The notes below the pieces were generated by a model. It ran no database searches. It was not told the origin of the DNA and was given only the letters and a program-made list of their open reading frames with translations. Positions 2,371 to 9,751 of a DNA stretch of 25,544 bases are shown one piece after another. The position numbers and the translations under genes are program-made. The DNA comes from Promethearchaeota archaeon. Its GTDB lineage: Archaea; Asgardarchaeota; Thorarchaeia; Thorarchaeales; Thorarchaeaceae. Location of the stretch: assembly GCA_027031765.1 (NCBI GenBank), contig JALVPN010000176.1, forward strand, positions 2,583 to 28,126, read 5' to 3'. Each line of letters opens with the position of its first letter. Within the stretch, counting starts at the first letter, position 1.

Positions 2371-3381
2371 GTGAAGGACATACTGAGAGTCGAAGACCTG
2401 ATTGTAGACTATGTCACACGGAGAGGAGTCGCAAGGGCAGTGGACCGTGTGAGCCTCACCGTGGGAGAGAACAGGACCCTCGGCCTTGCCGGTGAGTCCG
2501 GCTGCGGGAAGTCGACACTGGGACGCGCCATCATGAGGCTCGTACCCTACCCCGGGAAAATAGTGGACGGCAGGGTCTTCCTCGACCTGGACGAGGACAT
2601 CCCATACGAGAACGGCGTCCTCAAGAAGGGAGAGGTCGAGATAACAGCGCTTGACGAGGAGGCTCTCCGCGCAGTGCGTGGCAAGGAGATTGCATACATC
2701 TTCCAAGACCCGATGACCTCGTTGAACCCGATGCTCAGAATCGGAGACCACTTCGTCCAGATCCTCCAGGCACACAACCCTGAGATGGAGAAGGACGAGG
2801 CCCTTGAACGGGGGAAGGAGGTCCTCGAGAGCCTCGGGATACTCCCGGAGCGAATTGGGGACTACCCGCACCAGTTCAGCGGCGGCATGCGGCAGCGAGT
2901 GATGATTGGGTTGTCACTGGTAATGCGTCCCCGCCTCCTGATTGCAGATGAGCCCACCACGTCCCTGGACGTGATTGTCGAGGCGCAGATCCTTGAGGAG
3001 ATGGCCCAGTTGAAAGAGAAGTTCAACCTGACCATGATCCTCATCACACACAACCTCGGCGTCCTCGCCCAGACAGCAGACGACATCGCGGTCATGTACA
3101 CTGGCAGGATCTGCGAGGTCGCGACCACGGAAACGCTCTTTGAGGACCCGCAGCACCCGTATACGCAGGCCCTGCTAGAGTCGGTGCCGGACGTGACGAA
3201 ACCGGACAAGAAGCTCTCATGGATACCTGGGGCCCCACCGGACCTGGTGGAACCACTGCCAGGGTGCATGTTCCACCCGCGGTGTCCAAAGGCGATGGAC
3301 ATCTGCAAGAAGAAGGTGCCGAAACTTGTACAGAGTAACAACGGTGGCGTCGTGGCATGCCACCTGTATGGAGGTGCGTAA
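2371..3381 (+). CDS. dppD: Peptide ABC transporter ATP-binding subunit with C-terminal oligopeptide-transporter (HPY) Cys-rich domain
   Basis: Walker A GESGCGKS, Q-loop IFQDP, signature FSGGMRQR, Walker B LLIADEPTT, H-loop ITHNL, HPYT, and GC.FHPRC...C...VACH. Start is GTG 2371 (AGGAGTGA RBS just upstream) or GTG 2362 (overlapping the dppC stop). Confidence 0.93.
   Translation: MKDILRVEDLIVDYVTRRGVARAVDRVSLTVGENRTLGLAGESGCGKSTLGRAIMRLVPYPGKIVDGRVFLDLDEDIPYENGVLKKGEVEITALDEEALRAVRGKEIAYIFQDPMTSLNPMLRIGDHFVQILQAHNPEMEKDEALERGKEVLESLGILPERIGDYPHQFSGGMRQRVMIGLSLVMRPRLLIADEPTTSLDVIVEAQILEEMAQLKEKFNLTMILITHNLGVLAQTADDIAVMYTGRICEVATTETLFEDPQHPYTQALLESVPDVTKPDKKLSWIPGAPPDLVEPLPGCMFHPRCPKAMDICKKKVPKLVQSNNGGVVACHLYGGA
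3370..3376 (+). promoter_or_regulatory. Shine-Dalgarno site GGAGGTG for dppF
   Basis: Perfect GGAGGTG inside the end of dppD, 8 nt before ATG 3385. Confidence 0.8.
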
Positions 3382-3384
3382 GAG

Positions 3385-4362
3385 ATGGCACTGATAGAGG
3401 TCGTCAATGTCAAGAAATACTTCCCCGTCCAGAAGGGGTTCATGGAACAGCTGCTGACCAGACAACGGACTTTCGTCAAGGCACTTGACGGCGTGTCCTT
3501 CTCCATAGAGCGTGGCGAGGTGCTCGGTCTTGCCGGTGAGAGCGGCAGCGGGAAGACAACGATGGGCCGCCTGTGTGTCAGACTGATCGAGCCCACGGAG
3601 GGCAAGGTCATCTTCAAAGGCCTGGACCTGTCAGAGATCACTGGTGACCATCTGCGGTTCTTGAGGCGGAAACTCCAGTTCACCTTCCAAGACCCGTCGT
3701 CATCACTCAACCCACGAATGTCTGTAGGTGAGGCCATTGCTGATGCACTGCGCGTACAGGGGATGGGTACCAAGGAGGAGCGGCGCACGGCAGTGGAGGA
3801 GGTCCTGGAGAGGGTCGGACTGTCACCAGCAAGTGCGTTCTACGACCGCAAGCCCCACCAGCTCAGTGGTGGTCAGAGGCAACGTGTGGTGTTCGGACGC
3901 GCGATAGTGCTGAACCCCGAGTTCGTCGTCACAGACGAGCCCGTGGCAATGGTGGACGTGTCGATAAAGGCCCAGCTCCTCGAGCTCATGCTTGACCTCA
4001 AGAAGGACCTGAACCTCACGTACCTCTTCATCTCCCACGACCTGGCCACCGCAAGGTACGTATGTGACAGGATTGCCATCATGTACCTCGGTAAGATCGT
4101 GGAGATGGGCGACAAGGACCAGGTCTATGAGGAGCCCCTCCACCCGTATACCAAGGGTCTCATCCAGGCAATCCCGGTACCGAACCCGAAGATGCGCAGC
4201 GAGAAGGCCGTCCCACGGGGAGAGATACCTAGCCCGATAAGCCCGCCACCAGGGTGCAGGTTCCACCCCAGGTGCGAGCATGCCACGGACAAGTGCTCCC
4301 AGATAGAGCCCCAGCTCAAGGACGCGGGCAACGGTCACATGGTCGCGTGTCACCTGTACTGA
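3385..4362 (+). CDS. dppF: Peptide ABC transporter ATP-binding subunit, DppF/OppF type, with HPY Cys-rich C-terminal domain
   Basis: Walker A GESGSGKT, FQDP, LSGGQRQR, VVTDEP, ISHDL, HPYT, GCRFHPRC...C...VACHL. Confidence 0.93.
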   Translation: MALIEVVNVKKYFPVQKGFMEQLLTRQRTFVKALDGVSFSIERGEVLGLAGESGSGKTTMGRLCVRLIEPTEGKVIFKGLDLSEITGDHLRFLRRKLQFTFQDPSSSLNPRMSVGEAIADALRVQGMGTKEERRTAVEEVLERVGLSPASAFYDRKPHQLSGGQRQRVVFGRAIVLNPEFVVTDEPVAMVDVSIKAQLLELMLDLKKDLNLTYLFISHDLATARYVCDRIAIMYLGKIVEMGDKDQVYEEPLHPYTKGLIQAIPVPNPKMRSEKAVPRGEIPSPISPPPGCRFHPRCEHATDKCSQIEPQLKDAGNGHMVACHLY

Positions 4363-4415
4363 CCGGCGGGCACTTGACACACCACACAGACGAGAACGGG
4401 CCCCGAACATAGGCG

Positions 4416-4489
4416 GCCCCGTGTCCCCTGTGACCGGGGCTGCCTGGGGTCCTAGACCAGTGCCTGTGTCAGGGGGCTATGTCCTGACA
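4416..4489. terminator. Two GC-rich hairpins between convergent dppF and the lipT-like gene; possible bidirectional terminator
   Basis: GCCCCG(T)GTC...GACCGGGGC at 4416-4440 and TGTCAGG...CCTGACA at 4467-4489. No adjacent U-tract, so the functional call is weak. Confidence 0.3.
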
Positions 4490-4517
4490 GTCGTGGTAGG
4501 ACGGGGGGCTGGCCGCT

Positions 4518-5573
4518 TCAGCGGGACAGCTCGGCACGCACAAAGGCCTCACGGCCATCGTCGTCGAGCTCCACGACGTATTCTGTGAGGGAACGCACCA
4601 TGTCAGCAGTCCCGGAAACCTCACGAGAGTAGGCCTCCAACAGGTCACCGCCCTCACTTGCTGCACGTATCGCGGCTGCTGCGCTCTCGCCACTCTCGAC
4701 TGCCAGTCGGATGCCCTCGCCAGACAGTGGGTTACAGAGGCCCGCTGCATCGCCAGTGAGGAGCGTCCTGCCCCTACCCAAGACCACTGCCCCAAACGGT
4801 ATGGCCCAGAGGACCGAGGAGGTGGGCCTGCCCTGGAAGGAGAAGTCCCGCTGCAACAGGTCGTAGAAGCGCAGGAGCCGGTCAGACACATCCACACTGT
4901 CATGCGGTGTGCTGCCGGTGCCGATGAGGAGTCCCCCGTCCTTGGGGATCACGTAAGAGTAGGCTGGTGACACATGGCCGTTGAAGAAGGCATAGAAGTC
5001 GTCCTCGAACTGTCCACTGCGCGGACACCGGTCCTGCTTGATGACTGTCACCGGCATGTGTCGTTGCCCGGTCACGGTGTACCGTACGCGGGAACGCACG
5101 CCATCAGCACCGACCACGTAGTCTGTCGGCACGGAGATGTGAGAGCCAGCACTATTCAGGTGCACTACAGGCCGGTCGGCCTCCTCGACCGAGATGAAAC
5201 TCGTTTCCCAGAGGGTCTTGACGCCGGCGTCAGTGACGAGCCGTGCGAGCCAGCGGTTGAGCTCTGCACGGTCGATGTTCAGTACGCTGTAGCCCCTGAC
5301 GCGCCCCCCGTTCTCGGGACCGCTCGGTGGCACGTAGAACAGGCCCAGCTCCGGAGGACTGGCCATGACAGACTCCGGCAGTGCCTCACCGACGATGTCC
5401 TCGATTGTCTCAGCGGCAACACCCGGGAGCACACCACCACACGGCTTGTCCCCTGGCGAGGCGCGCCTGTCGACCAGGAGCACCTTGAACCCAAGACCGG
5501 CGCAACAGATGGCGGTGGAACAGCCGGCGGGGCCAGCGCCCACAACGACCACATCATACTCTTGCTCTTGCAT
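4518..5573 (-). CDS. Geranylgeranyl-reductase-family FAD-dependent oxidoreductase; LipT-like by gene context
   Basis: DVVVVGAGPAG dinucleotide motif, KPCGG, VVGADG, and GDAAG..NPLSGEGI. Directly downstream of the ligase (20-bp overlap) in a lipS1/lipS2 cluster. ATG 5573 preferred; GTG 5585 is an alternative. Confidence 0.8.
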   Translation of the reverse strand: MQEQEYDVVVVGAGPAGCSTAICCAGLGFKVLLVDRRASPGDKPCGGVLPGVAAETIEDIVGEALPESVMASPPELGLFYVPPSGPENGGRVRGYSVLNIDRAELNRWLARLVTDAGVKTLWETSFISVEEADRPVVHLNSAGSHISVPTDYVVGADGVRSRVRYTVTGQRHMPVTVIKQDRCPRSGQFEDDFYAFFNGHVSPAYSYVIPKDGGLLIGTGSTPHDSVDVSDRLLRFYDLLQRDFSFQGRPTSSVLWAIPFGAVVLGRGRTLLTGDAAGLCNPLSGEGIRLAVESGESAAAAIRAASEGGDLLEAYSREVSGTADMVRSLTEYVVELDDDGREAFVRAELSR

Positions 5574-7173
5574 CCTGTGACACACTCCCCTTCAGGAGGC
5601 CCCTCTCATGGAGCACCCTCAGTACCCGCTCGATCAGGTCGGTCTTCAGCGTGGTCTGGCCCTCAAAGTTACCGACGTAGGCCTCCTGCTCCTCACCGAG
5701 CTCGTAGCACGTCGAGTCGTCAATGTCGATTAGGAGGGCAGGCATGCCTGTGGCCACGAAGTCGTCATGGTGTTTCGTATAGAACCCCTCGCAACACGAA
5801 CCGACATAGCCCCTGTGACCGCGGGCAGCGAACTCCTCTATCGTTTCAATCAGGTGCTCGTAGTTCTGGATTGTCCTCACCGGGAGGCCGAGCTCCTGCG
5901 CAAGGCTGTAGACCGGGCCGATTGTGCACTCGCCACACACCGCACACCCCTCAGTGCGGCGGTACGCGCAGTCCACCAGCTTGGCACAGTAGGGCAACAG
6001 TACGAAGTCGAAACACTGGCTGTCGAGTTCGTCGGGCATGAAGTTGACGGTCATTATGTGGTTCGACTCGTCAAGCGAGACCCCATAGCGTGTGAGCGCC
6101 GACTTCTTCAGCGCCTCCAAGACCACATCAGTGAGCTGGTCGGGAGTGACGCCGAATATCCGGGCCCCGGTCTCCTTGAAGAAGTCCCTGACCCTTGTGC
6201 GCACGGCACCATCGTCCAAGGGCGTGTCCTTGAGCCTTGCCTCCAGATCCATGATTGCCCGTTGTGGGAACACCTGGAAGTCGCCAGTGATGAAGGAGCT
6301 GACGATGAACTTGCCGACCAGGTCGACCGCAAGCGACACCCTCACCAGTCCGCCGGGCAGCTTCCTCATGGCCGACACCATGCCACCGGTATTGGGCGGT
6401 CGCCGCACGAGGTGTACCCACTCGTCAGACTGGAAGTACGGGAGCCTCTCCCTGAATAGTGCGGACTCAGCGGGCGTCAGGCCACCGGGCTCGAACTCGA
6501 CACCGAACACCTCCTCGAACCCCGCGCGTATTGCGGCCTTGATGTCCGGCAGCGGCGGCACGTACCCGAGCTCCCACTTCAGGCATGTGACGCGTCTCTT
6601 GACCGACTCGACCTCCTTGTCCTTGAGCTTCTCAATGGGTATCCTGAGCGTCCGCAGCATCAGCTCGACGTCGAAGTCTACGAGCAGGGTGCCCTGGTAC
6701 ATGAACGAGGCACCACGCTCCGTACCACCAGTGCCCGATATCTTGCGGCCGCCCACCTCAATGTCGTTCTTTGGCCTGAACTCCGCGTCCACACCAAGGC
6801 GCTTCAGACCCCTGACTGTGGCCGAGCATATGCGCCGCGCAAGACGGTCAAGGTCGAGGCGCAGGTCGTGGATGCCCGGGGCGGACTTTTCCGCATAGAG
6901 CTCCCACCCCAGACAGGTCGGCGTGAAGAGGATTGCACCGCCACCCGTTATCCGCCGGTTGATGTCCACACCGTTCCTCCTGCAGAAGTCAACACGGATC
7001 TCCTGCTCCACAGACTGGTGATAGCCCACAAGCGCCGTCGGTGGACTGAACTGCAGGAAACGGAGGGTGTTGGGGGACTTGCCATCAGCATGACACTCAA
7101 GGATGACATCGTCAAGGGCCATGTTCTCAGCACCGGTCAGTACACCGGTGTCGAGCAGTCTCCAACGCGTCAC
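5554..7173 (-). CDS. lplA: Lipoate:protein ligase Lpl(AB) (catalytic domain plus accessory LplB-like domain) fused to a C-terminal Cys-rich DUF116-like domain; 539 aa
   Basis: Begins GTG-TRWRLLDTG...NMALD, with a GGGGTG RBS-like sequence upstream; the 80 codons of ORF upstream of 7173 look non-coding. Contains RRITGGGA, KNDIEVGGRKISG (catalytic Lys), QGTLL, the LplB-like GGLVRVSL...ITGDF, then LLPYC..5..C..7..C..C..C.IG and GSCC. Confidence 0.88.
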   Translation of the reverse strand: MTRWRLLDTGVLTGAENMALDDVILECHADGKSPNTLRFLQFSPPTALVGYHQSVEQEIRVDFCRRNGVDINRRITGGGAILFTPTCLGWELYAEKSAPGIHDLRLDLDRLARRICSATVRGLKRLGVDAEFRPKNDIEVGGRKISGTGGTERGASFMYQGTLLVDFDVELMLRTLRIPIEKLKDKEVESVKRRVTCLKWELGYVPPLPDIKAAIRAGFEEVFGVEFEPGGLTPAESALFRERLPYFQSDEWVHLVRRPPNTGGMVSAMRKLPGGLVRVSLAVDLVGKFIVSSFITGDFQVFPQRAIMDLEARLKDTPLDDGAVRTRVRDFFKETGARIFGVTPDQLTDVVLEALKKSALTRYGVSLDESNHIMTVNFMPDELDSQCFDFVLLPYCAKLVDCAYRRTEGCAVCGECTIGPVYSLAQELGLPVRTIQNYEHLIETIEEFAARGHRGYVGSCCEGFYTKHHDDFVATGMPALLIDIDDSTCYELGEEQEAYVGNFEGQTTLKTDLIERVLRVLHERGLLKGSVSQDARARV

Positions 7174-7240
7174 TGTCGATGAACACCCCGCATGGTGCAC
7201 AACCGCACCACACTCATACCACAAGTGCCGGGGCCGGCGC

Positions 7241-7247
7241 AATAAAT
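7241..7247 (-). promoter_or_regulatory. Possible TATA-like element (ATTTATT on the minus strand) upstream of the ligase gene
   Basis: The only AT-rich patch in the 249-bp lipS1-lplA gap, about 70 bp upstream of GTG 7173. Confidence 0.3.
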
Positions 7248-7422
7248 GTCTGTAGTCATGTGCACCCACCAAGGGCCAAGACCGGGGAGGACATGCCGCC
7301 AATCCATGCTGTGCGGTACAGTGTCGCAAGAGCCCTGTGCCCGTACTGTGGTACTGTGTGACATCGGAAACAGCCGTGGAGAGGCGGATGGACAAGCAGG
7401 AGGTGCAGCCCACCCGTGCGGC

Positions 7423-8457
7423 TCACTCGTGAGCGAGCAGCGAACGACCGAGCAGCGTGCAGCACTCCACCGACATGACCGGTTCCAGTCCTACGCTCTT
7501 TGCGAACTCGTAGCCCTCCTCAGTGGGGTATGCAATGGCATTGACGCCGGCACGTATCGCAAGGATGTCGGTCGTGCGGCGGTGCTCCCCCAGCGGTCGT
7601 GCGCACCCGAGGACAAGAGGCCGGTCCGGGATGGCGAGCCGCGCCGCGAGTATCACGCGTGCGATGTCCACTGGTGGTGCGGGCCGGGTGTGTGCCATCG
7701 GCGTCCTGTCGAGGGGCATGAACGCGACCACGACGACCGCGGCAGGGCTGTGTGCTGCAATCATCCGTATGGCCTCGGCCTCACCGAGGAGCCGGCCGTA
7801 GTGCAGGCCCACCACTATGTGTGGCATCACTGGCACCCCGTGCTCCTCGAGCAGGGACATCGACCTGTCAAAGACCTCCACCCCCACGTCCAGGTGGTAG
7901 ACCTGGCGGAGGGTTTCGTCTGAGCCTATGATGTCAAGCATTGCACCATCGACACCGGCCTCTGCAAGGCCACGTGCCACCTCTGGCAATACGACACCGG
8001 TGTGTACCACGATGTCGAGCCCGAGCTCCTCCTTGGCACGCTTGAGGACCGGTATGAACCTCTGGAGTGGGGTGTTCCCCTTCGGGGTGGAACCGCCGCT
8101 CACGAGACAGCCCTTGCCACCATGTTCCCTGACACGGAGCATGGTCTCCCACAGGGCATCAGGAGTGGTGGCGGGGAGCATTGTTTCGAGGAGCCTGCCC
8201 GAACAGTGGTCACAGTCCAGTGCGCACTGAGTGCCGGAGACCGAGATGCTGGGGAACCGGTACGGGTCGGTCGCGGTGAAGAAGTCGGTGTCAAAGTGCA
8301 CCATGCCGGGCATATGGAACGCAATCCGGTTGCCGAAGTGTGCCCGGGCTGTGCGGAAGGCCTCATCAAAGAGGGGGCCGAGCTCGTCCTCATCGGCAGT
8401 CATGCAGTGCTCGATGGTGTTGGAGAGGTCAGTCGTCAGCGTCATAGGAGAGGTCAT
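7423..8457 (-). CDS. lipS1: Radical SAM lipoyl synthase subunit LipS1 (BioB-like fold)
   Basis: CX3CX2C = CALDCDHC. Carries the LipS1-type GC(M/A)R motif (GCAR, 7597-7608) and C-terminal CC (7459-7464) that I recall from Thermococcus kodakarensis LipS1 homologues. Clustered with lipS2 and the ligase. Start is ATG 8457 or 8445. Confidence 0.82.
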   Translation of the reverse strand: MTSPMTLTTDLSNTIEHCMTADEDELGPLFDEAFRTARAHFGNRIAFHMPGMVHFDTDFFTATDPYRFPSISVSGTQCALDCDHCSGRLLETMLPATTPDALWETMLRVREHGGKGCLVSGGSTPKGNTPLQRFIPVLKRAKEELGLDIVVHTGVVLPEVARGLAEAGVDGAMLDIIGSDETLRQVYHLDVGVEVFDRSMSLLEEHGVPVMPHIVVGLHYGRLLGEAEAIRMIAAHSPAAVVVVAFMPLDRTPMAHTRPAPPVDIARVILAARLAIPDRPLVLGCARPLGEHRRTTDILAIRAGVNAIAYPTEEGYEFAKSVGLEPVMSVECCTLLGRSLLAHE

Positions 8458-9562
8458 CCACCTCGTATGTGAGAGAGTAGTCCTTGAGTTGCTGCCGGAC
8501 CAGCTCTATGTCGCTGGGCTCCGGGTGGACTGGGAAGTTCCGCCAGTGGCCGATTGATGCCTGGAAGGGAGTGCAGTTGCCGAAGGGCCGGTTGCAGGCA
8601 TTCTCCATGGTGGCGCCCCTGCAGCCAGAGGTCATGAAGGCATCGCCCATGGAGATGAGCTCGTCGAGGGCAGCAGGTGACAGTCCGAAGTCAACAATCT
8701 GGCCCAACTCGTTGAAACGCATGCCGTCGGCCCGTCCGTGGTCGTAGTTGATGATGTACCGTGCGAGCTGCACGCGCCTGTAGGCCCCGAGTGGCGGCTG
8801 CGGGTGGTCCTCCATTGCGGAGCCCTCCTCGGGGAAGAAGGAGAACAGGTGCGTGCGCGCACCCATGTCGTGCGCCCGCTGAATGGCCCTGACCATCTCC
8901 TCCTCGGTCTCACCGATGCCGACAATCAGGTGCACGCCCACGTTGAACGCCCCGAACACGTCGACGGCGTCCTCGACCGTGCGCCAGTAGATGTCCCACT
9001 TGTGGGGGCCGCGGACACCACGGCCGCGCAGCCTGTCAAAGAGTCCGGGGGTCGCTGCGTCGACCGCGATCCCGATCATGTCAGCGCCAGCGTCCCTCAC
9101 CCGCACGAGCCAGTCCTTCGTGACAATGGTGGGCGTGATGAGCACAGAGATGCGGGGGATGACCTCGTGGAACTCCGAGACCACACGGATGCAGTCCTCA
9201 CGGGCCCGTGCATTCGTGATCATGGACACGCAGACACGCTCGACATGTGGGCAGGTGCCGTCGCGCAGGGCCTGCTTGATGTCCTCAACAGGGACGATGG
9301 GCCAGTCCACACGGATGAAGCTCTTGTCGGTCCATGCACCGTCGGTCTGCCTGCTCCCAGAGAGCCCGCAGTACGCACACTTGGCATGACAGCCCTCATC
9401 ATAGGTCAGCAGCACATTGATGCAGTACAGCTTTGCGTCCCGGTAGAACCTACCGGGCACCTTGCCAATCGTCATCGCTGCGGCGAGGCTCACCCGCACA
9501 TGCGATGGCGACTCGAGACCTCCGGCCAGCTCTGTGGTGTCTGGTGCTCCTAGTGTCTTCAT
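8429..9562 (-). CDS. lipS2: Radical SAM lipoyl synthase subunit LipS2
   Basis: CX3CX2C = CHAKCAYC. C-terminal TSGC-RGATMENA-CNRP matches the LipS2 TXGC..C(N/D)RP motif with a longer spacer. ATG 9562 chosen because the upstream extension to 9718 runs through the promoter region. Confidence 0.82.
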   Translation of the reverse strand: MKTLGAPDTTELAGGLESPSHVRVSLAAAMTIGKVPGRFYRDAKLYCINVLLTYDEGCHAKCAYCGLSGSRQTDGAWTDKSFIRVDWPIVPVEDIKQALRDGTCPHVERVCVSMITNARAREDCIRVVSEFHEVIPRISVLITPTIVTKDWLVRVRDAGADMIGIAVDAATPGLFDRLRGRGVRGPHKWDIYWRTVEDAVDVFGAFNVGVHLIVGIGETEEEMVRAIQRAHDMGARTHLFSFFPEEGSAMEDHPQPPLGAYRRVQLARYIINYDHGRADGMRFNELGQIVDFGLSPAALDELISMGDAFMTSGCRGATMENACNRPFGNCTPFQASIGHWRNFPVHPEPSDIELVRQQLKDYSLTYEVDDLSYDADD

Positions 9563-9592
9563 GGCAACCCGCCACCGAAGGGTATTGCACGG

Positions 9593-9600
9593 CTTATTAC
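9593..9600 (-). promoter_or_regulatory. Putative BRE/TATA element for the lipS2 operon (GAAACC-GTAATAAG)
   Basis: AT-rich box 31-38 bp upstream of ATG 9562, preceded by GAAA. Confidence 0.4.
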
Positions 9601-9751
9601 GGTTTCTGGATTTGCCGTCCCGGATCGGAGCGGTGGCGTCCCGCCCCCATGACGACACACACTGCATGACACGCCGCCTGCCCTGGCTGAGAGTACCTGC
9701 GGGGCCAGAGGACAACACCTGACACAGACGGGGCCCTGACCAGCTGCTCTC

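What the first reader, a model, noticed from the sequence alone, without database searches (positions are those of the whole stretch)
5554..6012. Lipoate ligase fused to a Cys-rich DUF116-like domain: candidate built-in Fe-S or sulfur-relay module
After the catalytic and LplB-like domains, the 539-aa protein continues into LLPYCAKLVDCAYRRTEGCAVCGECTIG...GYVGSCCEGFY...STCYE. This has seven clustered cysteines in the DUF116 pattern plus two more nearby. Ordinary LplA/Lpl(AB) proteins lack such a domain. Lipoyl synthases consume an auxiliary Fe-S cluster as sulfur donor, so a fused metal or Fe-S domain on the enzyme that loads the substrate could regenerate clusters, relay electrons from the LipT-like flavoprotein, or scaffold LipS1/S2. 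That would give DUF116 a function. I cannot confirm whether this fusion has already been described.
Basis: partly seen in the sequence, partly recalled or inferred. Interest (0 to 1): 0.72.

Follow-up and report, generated by a model that had tools for sequence, protein, structure and literature searches.

The report
Lipoate ligase carrying a DUF116 cysteine domain
The lipoate ligase in this archaeal lipoic-acid operon really does end in a cysteine-rich DUF116 domain, and the same fusion recurs in hundreds of mostly anaerobic species beside the LipS1/LipS2 sulfur-insertion enzymes and the LipT flavoprotein, so it is probably an undescribed metal or iron-sulfur accessory part of that pathway.

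Summary
Observation confirmed. The minus-strand gene at 5554-7173 (539 aa) encodes an LplA catalytic domain, an LplB-like domain and a C-terminal PF01976/DUF116 domain. The DUF116 domain has eight cysteines that are invariant in 90 fused homologues. It sits in a lipS2-lipS1-ligase::DUF116-lipT operon.

The fusion is not unique. At least 589 species genomes encode it, across Asgard, Bathyarchaeia, Thermoplasmata, Chloroflexota, Desulfobacterota, Moorella and others. Databases auto-name it "DUF116 domain-containing protein". No paper in the searchable library discusses it.

The ligase-attached DUF116 is its own subfamily, tied tightly to the pathway:
- lipT lies directly downstream in 64 of 74 loci.
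- Both lipS1 and lipS2 are present in 43 of 47 loci with wide flanks.
- In 151 Desulfovibrionia genomes, the 13 with this subfamily are exactly the 13 with LipS2.
- Ligase+DUF116+LipT single-chain fusions and a free-standing DUF116 gene between the ligase and lipT both exist.

Canonical DUF116 shows no such link. It sits in def-fmt-DUF116-rsmB operons and is fused to isoprenoid-synthase-like domains.

The fold is a small flavodoxin/Rossmann-like α/β domain with no solved relative. My best reading (about 0.45) is an Fe-S electron-relay partner of LipT that serves LipS1/S2. Cluster or sulfur resupply, a structural Zn scaffold and a redox sensor remain open. Metal content is untested. The scan's other notes cover only this same window.

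The parts
8429..9718 (-). lipS2, a radical-SAM lipoyl synthase subunit. These are the maximal ORF bounds; the real start is probably further in, because the family match begins at residue 74.
   Evidence: The best NCBIfam hit is NF053743 LipS2, at 202.7 bits and E 8e-60 (below the 270-bit cut-off), plus PF04055. It belongs to a diverged LipS2 type that travels with the fused ligase in other genomes.
7423..8457 (-). lipS1, a radical-SAM lipoyl synthase subunit
   Evidence: The best NCBIfam hit is NF053742 LipS1, at 201.7 bits and E 1.6e-59 (cut-off 230), plus PF04055 and a weak BATS hit.
5554..7173 (-). Lipoate:protein ligase Lpl(AB) fused to a C-terminal DUF116 domain (539 aa plus stop). The ORF stays open upstream to 7413.
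   Evidence: Translation; start inferred from 90 homologues; domains; AlphaFold2 full-length model with pLDDT 90.1.
6517..7131 (-). LplA/LplB-family catalytic domain, including the invariant GRKISGTGG motif
   Evidence: PF21948 at 152 bits, residues 95-299 of the ORF translation. The motif lysine is invariant in 90 homologues.
6109..6363 (-). LplB-like accessory domain
   Evidence: NF053749 LplB at 33.9 bits (below the 65-bit cut-off), residues 351-435. Many fused homologues carry PF10437. The model shows a folded beta/alpha domain here.
5596..6012 (-). DUF116 domain of the ligase-attached subfamily: a four-stranded flavodoxin/Rossmann-like α/β fold
   Evidence: PF01976 at 29.8-31.8 bits; hhalign against canonical DUF116 gives 96%; the domain model has pLDDT 92.1 and pTM 0.87; generic Rossmann 2x2 and CheY-like fold matches only.
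5926..5988 (-). First cysteine cluster, C-x5-C-x7-C-x2-C-x2-C, in the loop after strand 1
   Evidence: All five cysteines are invariant in 90 of 90 fused homologues and are shared with canonical DUF116.
5791..5796 (-). CC pair after strand 3
   Evidence: Invariant in 90 of 90. In canonical DUF116 only the second cysteine is present (GxAC). In the wider set A2 the first is in at least 90% of members.
5707..5709 (-). Last conserved cysteine (TCY motif) after strand 4
   Evidence: Invariant in 90 of 90. It aligns with the cysteine of the canonical 'DGC/AGC' motif.
4518..5585 (-). lipT-like geranylgeranyl-reductase-family flavoprotein. Its start (ATG 5573 or GTG 5585) overlaps the end of the ligase gene by 20-32 nt.
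   Evidence: TIGR02032 GG-red-SF at 166.7 bits (cut-off 158.8) plus FAD-binding Pfam families. The same gene lies directly downstream of the fused ligase in 64 of 74 loci.

Best explanation
The C-terminal domain is a dedicated accessory module of the LipS1/LipS2-type lipoyl-cofactor pathway. It is a DUF116-subfamily flavodoxin-like domain that most likely holds one or two Fe-S clusters on its eight invariant cysteines. It probably acts as the redox partner of the flavoprotein LipT encoded immediately downstream.

Proposed flow:
1. A cellular reductant, NAD(P)H or ferredoxin, reduces the FAD of LipT.
2. Electrons pass to the DUF116 metal centre.
3. From there they reach the radical-SAM [4Fe-4S] clusters of LipS2 and LipS1.
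4. LipS2 and LipS1 thiolate the octanoyl group that the ligase part has just attached to the acceptor protein.

Tethering the relay to the ligase would keep substrate loading and reductive sulfur insertion in one complex.

Shown here: the domain architecture, family membership, cysteine conservation, predicted fold, operon structure, co-occurrence, and the fusion and split variants. Inferred: metal binding, cluster type, contact with LipT and LipS1/S2, and the direction of electron flow. I put about 0.85 on it being a pathway-specific accessory module, about 0.65 on Fe-S rather than Zn, and about 0.45 on the electron-relay role.
For: 1. Membership and conservation. PF01976 hits; 96% profile match to canonical DUF116; eight cysteines invariant in 90 of 90 homologues; domain identity 0.60 against 0.62 for the catalytic domain.

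2. Fold. The confident model places every conserved cysteine in the loop after strand 1 or just after strands 3 and 4, which is the usual cofactor edge of flavodoxin-like folds. A CxxCxxC motif is present. Makarova et al. 2015 (PMC5898192) independently predicted DUF116 to be a metal-binding, flavodoxin-like electron-transfer domain.

3. Pathway link. At least 589 species genomes carry the full-length fusion. Of 74 loci with enough flank, 64 have lipT directly downstream on the same strand and four more have it downstream on the opposite strand. Of 47 loci with wide flanks, 43 have both lipS1 and lipS2. The position of lipS1/lipS2 varies, while ligase::DUF116 followed by lipT stays fixed.

4. 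Fusions. Ligase+DUF116+LipT occurs as a single polypeptide in four 90%-identity clusters. Two of these (P0144, P0273) share only 36-37% identity with the Sumerlaeota query over the DUF116+LipT part.

5. Split form. In L104 the order is ligase, then a 164-aa DUF116 gene, then lipT, then two radical-SAM genes. This shows the domain is a separable module placed between the ligase and LipT.

6. Co-occurrence. In 151 Desulfovibrionia genomes the 13 with ligase-type DUF116 are exactly the 13 with LipS2, always on the same contig within about 3 kb. All 35 Asgard genomes with the subfamily also have LipS2.

7. Background. Tanabe et al. 2023 (PMC10332631) propose LipT as the electron supplier for LipS1/S2.
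Against: No metal content, redox or binding data exist, and none can be produced with these tools.

LipS1/S2 works without this domain in many genomes. In the Asgard sample, 102 of 137 LipS2-positive genomes lack ligase-type DUF116. This genome also has a second, dispersed LipS1/LipS2/LplA-LplB set without it. The Thioalkalivibrio lipS1-slpl(AB)-lipT-lipS2 genes sufficed to mature LbpA in E. coli, and the paper mentions no such domain.

Some loci, mainly Thermoplasmata, have the fused ligase but no lipT within 8 kb.

The cysteine pattern is not a canonical ferredoxin CxxCxxCxxxCP motif. Only four of 65 members give insignificant Fer4-type hits.

Eight cysteines could also bind zinc.

No solved structure or characterised family resembles the domain beyond the generic fold.
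Confidence: 0.45

Rival explanations
1. Cluster or sulfur resupply. The DUF116 domain carries an Fe-S cluster that it hands over to rebuild the sacrificial auxiliary clusters of LipS1/LipS2 after each turnover, as NfuA does for LipA. LipT would supply electrons for reductive cluster assembly or transfer.
For: LipS1 and LipS2 are reported to consume an auxiliary cluster as the sulfur source. The regeneration factor is known only for LipA/LIAS (NfuA/NFU1, IscU), according to the review PMC13692748. The subfamily co-occurs perfectly with LipS2 in Desulfovibrionia and shares the operon. Tethering to the ligase would place a donor next to the substrate.
Against: There is no sequence or profile similarity to Nfu, IscU or A-type carriers. 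Seven to eight invariant cysteines buried in one small domain look more like permanently bound centres than the labile, often dimer-bridged clusters of carrier proteins (inference). The neighbour with a fixed position and the in-frame fusion partner is LipT, not LipS1 or LipS2. Many LipS1/S2 systems lack the domain.
Confidence: 0.2
2. Structural zinc scaffold. The cysteines bind Zn, and the domain only serves as a docking platform that assembles the ligase, LipT and LipS1/S2 into one complex. It performs no redox chemistry.
For: Eight cysteines can form two Zn(Cys)4 sites. Fusion and adjacency patterns show physical or functional coupling but say nothing about chemistry. Canonical DUF116 occurs in non-redox contexts such as def-fmt-DUF116-rsmB.
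Against: The CxxCxxC motif and the placement of all cysteines at the cofactor edge of a flavodoxin-like fold are more typical of Fe-S sites (inference). Carriers are predominantly anaerobic lineages, judging by taxon names. The recurrent fusion partners are nucleotide- or flavin-type redox domains: LipT and a CdhB-like domain.
Confidence: 0.15
3. Redox or Fe-S sensor. The domain senses the cellular redox or iron-sulfur state and gates ligase activity, so that octanoylation proceeds only when sulfur insertion can follow.
For: The domain is fused to the ligase rather than to the synthases in nearly all cases. Its fold resembles CheY-type receiver domains at a generic level (Z about 6).
Against: The receiver-like match is no better than matches to de novo designed Rossmann proteins. 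The free-standing form and the LipT fusions are not explained by a ligase-intrinsic switch. No conserved phospho-acceptor aspartate is evident among the invariant residues.
Confidence: 0.08

Closest known systems
Lpl(AB)/sLpl(AB) lipoate:protein ligases of LipS1/LipS2-LipT gene clusters (Tanabe et al. 2023, PMC10332631; T. kodakarensis LplAB)
   Same: Both have the catalytic LplA domain plus an LplB-like accessory domain. Both share an operon with lipS1, lipS2 and the GGR-like lipT. One sulfur-oxidiser-type cluster (TusA-DsrE-GcvH/LbpA-lipS1-ligase-lipT-lipS2-Toluene_X) even carries the DUF116 domain.
   Different: The described ligases are presented as two-domain or two-subunit enzymes. The extra roughly 140-aa cysteine-rich DUF116 domain is not mentioned in any paper I could search.
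Canonical DUF116 / COG1852 / arCOG02078 (Pfam PF01976; Makarova et al. 2015, PMC5898192)
   Same: Seven shared cysteine positions including CxxCxxC; a flavodoxin-like fold; a profile-profile match of 96%.
   Different: Canonical members score 100-198 bits against the Pfam model, compared with 23-45 bits here. They have their own N-terminal region, reported as two TM helices. They lack the first cysteine of the CC pair. They occur in unrelated contexts: def-fmt-DUF116-rsmB, fusions to polyprenyl or SQS_PSY-like synthases, and sulfite reductase neighbourhoods. They show no link to LipS2.
NfuA/NFU1 regeneration of the LipA/LIAS auxiliary cluster
   Same: Both would be a pathway-associated accessory factor for a sulfur-inserting radical-SAM lipoyl synthase.
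   Different: There is no homology. NfuA is a general Fe-S carrier that is not encoded with or fused to the ligase. A role in cluster transfer is only a rival hypothesis here.
NCBIfam NF053790 bifunctional lipoate-protein ligase/lipoyl synthase (LplA-LipA fusion)
   Same: It is another case where the ligase is fused to a partner from the sulfur-insertion step. The ligase part of the query matches it at 88 bits.
   Different: That fusion partner is the synthase LipA itself, not a small cysteine-rich domain. The hit covers only the ligase part and is far below the 800-bit cut-off.
Flavodoxin or ferredoxin with their reductases as electron donors to radical-SAM enzymes; archaeal geranylgeranyl reductase with a dedicated ferredoxin (the second from memory, not checked here)
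   Same: The proposed logic is the same: a flavoprotein paired with a small low-potential carrier that reduces the radical-SAM cluster. LipT belongs to the GGR family.
   Different: The carrier here would be a DUF116 domain, not a ferredoxin or FMN flavodoxin, and it is covalently tied to the ligase. No biochemical evidence exists.

Membership tests
Pfam PF01976 (DUF116) | Match to the family HMM above the gathering score | tested here: met
   29.8 bits on the full protein and 31.8 on the domain, against a cut-off of 25. All 65 subfamily members match. hhalign against seven canonical Asgard DUF116 sequences gives 96%, E 3.9e-9.
Pfam PF01976 (DUF116) | Conserved cysteine set (about seven) including CxxCxxC | tested here: met
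   Seven positions are shared with canonical members, plus one subfamily-specific cysteine. All are invariant in 90 of 90 homologues.
Pfam PF01976 (DUF116) | N-terminal region with two transmembrane helices, as described for stand-alone members (Makarova 2015) | tested here: not met
   The match starts at profile position 42 of 155, and the ligase domains precede it directly. This is a feature of stand-alone members, not of the globular domain.
Pfam PF01976 (DUF116) | Flavodoxin-like α/β globular fold (predicted by HHpred in Makarova 2015) | tested here: met
   The AlphaFold2 domain model (pLDDT 92.1) is a four-stranded α/β fold. Its best structural matches are Rossmann 2x2 designs, CheY receivers and TIR domains (Z up to 7.8).
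Lipoate:protein ligase Lpl(AB) | LplA/LipB-type catalytic domain with the conserved lysine motif | tested here: met
   PF21948 at 152 bits. The GRKISGTGG motif has an invariant Lys in 90 homologues. The lysine's role in binding the acyl-adenylate is recalled from E. coli LplA and was not tested.
Lipoate:protein ligase Lpl(AB) | LplB-type accessory domain | tested here: inconclusive
   NF053749 scores 33.9 bits, below its 65-bit cut-off. PF10437 is recorded for many fused homologues. A folded domain is modelled there.
Lipoate:protein ligase Lpl(AB) | ATP-dependent octanoyl/lipoyl transfer activity | not testable with these tools
   This needs an enzyme assay.
LipS1/LipS2-LipT lipoate assembly cluster (Tanabe 2023) | lipS1, lipS2, a ligase and a GGR-like lipT encoded together | tested here: met
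   NF053742 and NF053743 are the best hits, at about 202 bits each, though below the curated cut-offs. TIGR02032 is above its cut-off. All four genes are co-oriented and abut or overlap.
Ferredoxin-type 4Fe-4S domains (Fer4 clan) | CxxCxxCxxxCP motif and an HMM match | tested here: not met
   Only CxxCxxC is present. Fer4-type hits occur in four of 65 members at E 0.005-0.03, below the cut-offs.
CCG domain (PF02754, HdrB-type non-cubane cluster site) | Profile similarity, with the CC(G) motif in register | tested here: not met
   hhalign of the domain alignment against 27 CCG domains from the same genome gives 1.3% probability. No CCG hit in Pfam.
DGC domain (PF08859) | Profile similarity | tested here: not met
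   hhalign gives 0.2% for the ligase-type domain and 0.5% for canonical DUF116.

The most novel reading that the evidence does not exclude
The ligase-attached DUF116 domain is the missing physiological link of the LipS1/LipS2 pathway in anaerobes. It would be an Fe-S module that, together with LipT, both reduces the radical-SAM clusters and enables multiple turnovers. More generally, DUF116 domains would be a new class of low-potential redox partners for GGR-type flavoproteins and isoprenoid-linked enzymes. That would give a first biochemical role to a family conserved from methanogens to sulfate reducers.
Probability: 0.25. Interest if true: 0.8.

Novelty: new variant of a known kind. Interest (0 to 1): 0.6.

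Why it matters
The LipS1/LipS2 route is the most recently recognised way to make the lipoyl cofactor. Three things about it remain open: its in-vivo electron donor, the role of LipT, and how the sacrificial auxiliary clusters are restored.

This analysis shows that a large, phylogenetically broad class of these operons encodes a fourth conserved component that the literature I could search has not discussed. The component is a cysteine-rich DUF116 module, fused to the ligase and positionally locked to LipT.

That turns an uncharacterised Pfam family into a concrete, testable candidate for the missing redox or cluster-supply factor. Cultured carriers such as Desulfovibrio desulfuricans and Moorella are available for genetics and biochemistry. 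The analysis also separates this subfamily from canonical DUF116, which has unrelated contexts, and this limits how far any functional assignment can be generalised.

Tried and rejected
- **Homology of the 'SCCEGF' region to HdrB-type CCG domains.** Rejected: hhalign 1.3% against 27 CCG domains from the same genome.
- **Homology to DGC domains.** I considered this because a DGC::GcvH fusion lies in the same genome. Rejected: 0.2-0.5%.
- **Solved-structure relatives.** The sequence profile against PDB found nothing better than E 0.2. Foldseek against PDB gave a best E of 3.7e-3, to TIR, CheY and lumazine synthase. The VIA-align wide search gave a best Z of 7.8, to de novo designed Rossmann or P-loop proteins. 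Only the generic fold is shared.
- **ESM Atlas feature search, excluding DUF116 and ligase families.** It returned a single 0.78 hit to a Prismane/CODH cluster, which is below the level at which shuffled sequences also score. I did not use it.
- **Complex prediction of LipT + DUF116 domain + FAD + 4Fe-4S.** Score 0.01, no verdict. This is not evidence either way.
- **CdhB-like domain as an alternative to LipT.** Not supported: the 1117-aa ligase+DUF116+CdhB protein still has lipT immediately downstream.
- **Neighbours of stand-alone canonical DUF116 in Asgard genomes.** They were heterogeneous and uninformative.
- **Rfam scan of the window.** No match.
- **One genome search failed on a parameter error and was redone**.
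- **Not attempted.** I could not read model coordinates, so Cys-Cys distances and the domain-domain interface in the full-length model (pTM 0.63) were not examined.
Full report
**What is in the window**

On the minus strand, four co-oriented genes abut or overlap.
- lipS2: ORF 8429-9718. NF053743, 202.7 bits.
- lipS1: 7423-8457. NF053742, 201.7 bits.
- The ligase gene: ORF 5554-7413.
- A geranylgeranyl-reductase-family flavoprotein, lipT-like: 4518-5585. TIGR02032, 166.7 bits, above its cut-off.

The two radical-SAM hits are the best matches but fall below the curated equivalog cut-offs.

Pfam finds the LplA/B catalytic domain (152 bits) and PF01976/DUF116 (29.8 bits; cut-off 25). NCBIfam finds a weak LplB match between them.

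**Is the domain real and constrained?**

I aligned 90 fused homologues that are 50-76% identical to the window protein. Eight cysteines are invariant, in the pattern C-x5-C-x7-C-x2-C-x2-C ... CC ... C. So are several charged and aromatic residues: K407, R414, E448, K476, H477 and Y499 in the numbering of the 548-aa gene call. The ninth cysteine nearby is not conserved.

Mean pairwise identity is 0.60 in the DUF116 part, 0.62 in the catalytic domain and 0.52 in the LplB-like part.

In a wider set of 65 domains reaching down to about 35% identity, seven cysteines stay invariant and the eighth is present in at least 90%. All 65 hit PF01976. A profile-profile comparison with canonical Asgard DUF116 proteins gives 96% probability. 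It aligns seven cysteine positions, and the first C of the CC pair is specific to the ligase-attached form.

**Fold**

AlphaFold2 models both the whole protein (pLDDT 90.1) and the isolated domain (pLDDT 92.1, pTM 0.87) with confidence. The domain is a four-stranded parallel α/β fold. The cysteines lie in the long loop after strand 1 and immediately after strands 3 and 4.

PDB searches by sequence profile, Foldseek and an exhaustive structural aligner return only generic Rossmann 2x2 designs, CheY receivers and TIR domains. The best values are Z 7.8 and Foldseek E 3.7e-3. This agrees with the flavodoxin-like prediction of Makarova et al. 2015, and it means no solved relative exists.

The ESM Atlas structural search returns only DUF116 clusters. 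These include ligase fusions, LplB+DUF116 proteins and polyprenyl-synthetase+DUF116 proteins.

**How widespread is the fusion?**

The word-indexed protein search returned more than 120 top clusters with the LplA-B_cat + DUF116 architecture. Sources name them 'DUF116 domain-containing protein' or 'lipoate-protein ligase'.

They include Thorarchaeota (the window's closest relatives), Bathyarchaeia, Nitrososphaeria, Thermoplasmata, several other Asgard lineages, Altiarchaeales, Anaerolineae and other Chloroflexota, many Desulfobacterota including cultured Desulfovibrio desulfuricans, Moorella, Nitrospinota and Sumerlaeota.

An exhaustive phmmer search of the domain alone against 1.84 billion representatives found only 186 proteins. 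Nearly all are ligase fusions or fragments of them. The ligase-attached domain is therefore a distinct DUF116 subfamily.

**Genomic association**

In 82 loci carrying the fused ligase I located relatives of the window's LipT, LipS1 and LipS2.
- Of 74 loci with at least 900 nt downstream, 64 have lipT immediately downstream on the same strand, often overlapping. Four more have it downstream on the other strand.
- Of 47 loci with wide flanks, 43 contain both lipS1 and lipS2.
- The synthase genes may lie before or after, but the order ligase::DUF116 then lipT is fixed.

Several variants exist.
- In-frame ligase+DUF116+LipT proteins occur in four 90%-identity clusters. P0144 and P0273 are only 36-37% identical to the Sumerlaeota query over the DUF116+LipT part.
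- A split form has a 164-aa DUF116 gene between the ligase and lipT.
- Some proteins add a CdhB-like (PF02552) domain after DUF116. One sits in a sulfur-oxidiser-type TusA-DsrE-GcvH/LbpA cluster and is still followed by lipT.

**Co-occurrence across genomes**

In a sample of 151 Desulfovibrionia genomes, 13 carry the ligase-type domain (33-44 bits, ORFs of 530-613 aa). Exactly the same 13 carry LipS2, on the same contig within about 3 kb. Canonical DUF116 (159-198 bits) is present in 136 of the 151 regardless of LipS2. These 13 genomes may be close kin, so this is one or a few evolutionary events rather than 13 independent observations.

In 201 Asgard genomes, 35 carry the ligase-type domain and all 35 have LipS2. 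However, LipS2 occurs in 137 genomes, so most LipS2 carriers lack the domain. In at least 21 Asgard genomes, the LipS2 copy next to the fused ligase is a diverged type scoring 215-260 bits, below the NCBIfam cut-off. A canonical copy scoring above 290 bits often lies elsewhere in the genome.

The window's own genome shows this duality. Besides the operon it has a dispersed canonical LipS2 (C169), a LipS1 (C144) and a bipartite LplA/LplB pair (C21). It has no LipA, it has three GcvH-family proteins, and the fused copy is its only DUF116.

**Canonical DUF116 is a different story**

In Desulfovibrionia and Moorella it sits in a conserved def-fmt-DUF116-rsmB arrangement. In Thorarchaeota it is fused, in either order, to a roughly 350-aa domain with weak squalene/phytoene-synthase similarity. 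Elsewhere its neighbours are heterogeneous. Makarova et al. report sulfite/nitrite-reductase and ArsA-like neighbours and polyprenyl-synthetase fusions.

The association with lipoate synthesis is therefore a property of one subfamily. A function found for it need not transfer to the whole family.

**Mechanism**

The shown facts point to a pathway-specific accessory module whose closest functional partner is LipT. These facts are the cysteine-rich cofactor-edge site on a flavodoxin-like fold, the tight positional and fusion coupling to a flavoprotein, the obligatory co-occurrence with radical-SAM sulfur-insertion enzymes, and the predominance of anaerobic lineages.

The most economical reading is an Fe-S relay between the LipT flavin and the radical-SAM clusters of LipS2 and LipS1, held on the ligase so that loading and thiolation occur in one assembly. 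This extends the published suggestion that LipT supplies electrons.

I cannot tell Fe-S from Zn, one centre from two, or the direction of electron flow. The rivals stay open:
- cluster or sulfur resupply analogous to NfuA;
- a zinc scaffold;
- a redox sensor.

The fact that many LipS1/S2 systems do without the domain argues that it optimises or adapts the pathway, perhaps to a particular reductant or acceptor protein, rather than being chemically indispensable.

**Literature**

Whole-word 'DUF116' occurs in two papers of the searchable library. Neither links it to lipoate. The key LipS1/S2 papers, a 2026 review and a 2026 preprint on ligase specificity do not mention an extra ligase domain.

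The library lacks most subscription journals, so absence there is not proof of novelty. The architecture itself is visible in public domain annotations.

**Verdict**

This window is a new member of a widespread but undiscussed variant of the known LipS1/S2-Lpl(AB)-LipT system. I score interest at 0.6. The variant is not rare or exotic, but it offers a concrete, experimentally accessible candidate for open questions about this pathway, and a first functional foothold for part of the DUF116 family.

Noticed in passing
own genome: G000:C169:729-1823, C144:48114-49139, C21:6271-7331, C218:2814-3629: The genome holds a second, dispersed lipoylation set: a canonical LipS2 (318 bits, above the cut-off), a LipS1, a bipartite LplA+LplB pair and another LplA-like gene. 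It has no LipA. So there are two parallel LipS1/S2 systems, possibly with different acceptor proteins.
   Followed up: partly
own genome: G000:C101:519-2187 (loci L004, L111, L124, L130): A GcvH-family protein is fused to an N-terminal DGC domain (PF08859, 48 bits) and is followed by two more DGC-domain genes. DGC genes also lie about 1.3 kb from a diverged LipS2 in G001 and about 2.6 kb upstream of the split ligase-DUF116-lipT operon in L104. DGC is not homologous to DUF116 by hhalign.
   Followed up: partly
L134, L135, L136 (Desulfovibrionia) and L137 (Moorella), about 2500-6000 in each: Canonical stand-alone DUF116 (about 270 aa) sits between methionyl-tRNA formyltransferase and the 16S rRNA methyltransferase RsmB. 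Peptide deformylase lies upstream in two of the four loci checked. The arrangement is conserved across two phyla. Canonical DUF116 is present in 136 of 151 Desulfovibrionia genomes sampled.
   Followed up: partly
L100:300-1913, L101:1673-3340, L103:3026-4696 (Thorarchaeota genomes G075, G197, G182): Canonical DUF116 is fused, at either end, to a roughly 350-aa domain with DDxxD-like motifs and weak squalene/phytoene-synthase similarity (PF00494, 19.5 bits, below the cut-off). This is another link between DUF116 and isoprenoid enzymes.
   Followed up: partly
L106:4965-8318 (P0243), L107:6001-8013 (P0249), P0245: Some proteins combine the ligase (one has two catalytic domains), DUF116 and a CdhB-like domain (PF02552, the CO dehydrogenase/acetyl-CoA synthase epsilon subunit family). 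L106 lies in a TusA-DsrE-GcvH/LbpA-lipS1-...-lipT-lipS2-Toluene_X cluster typical of sHdr-type sulfur oxidisers.
   Followed up: partly
window 7174-7422: Between the lipS1 stop and the supported ligase start lies an unusually long 249-nt spacer. It stays open in the ligase frame, and related Thorarchaeota loci have almost no gap here. It contains a TTTATT stretch near 7245 that could be an internal archaeal promoter. There is no Rfam match.
   Followed up: partly
L105:453-1157 (P0125): A 234-aa ligase-type DUF116 protein on a short metagenome contig translates to the recorded protein only if TGA is read as Trp. This hints at a carrier organism with a reassigned stop codon.
   Followed up: no
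own genome, 28 places: There are 28 CCG-domain (HdrB/HdrD-like) matches in a 2.95-Mb genome. That is a large heterodisulfide-reductase-like complement and might relate to the extra GcvH-like proteins.
   Followed up: no
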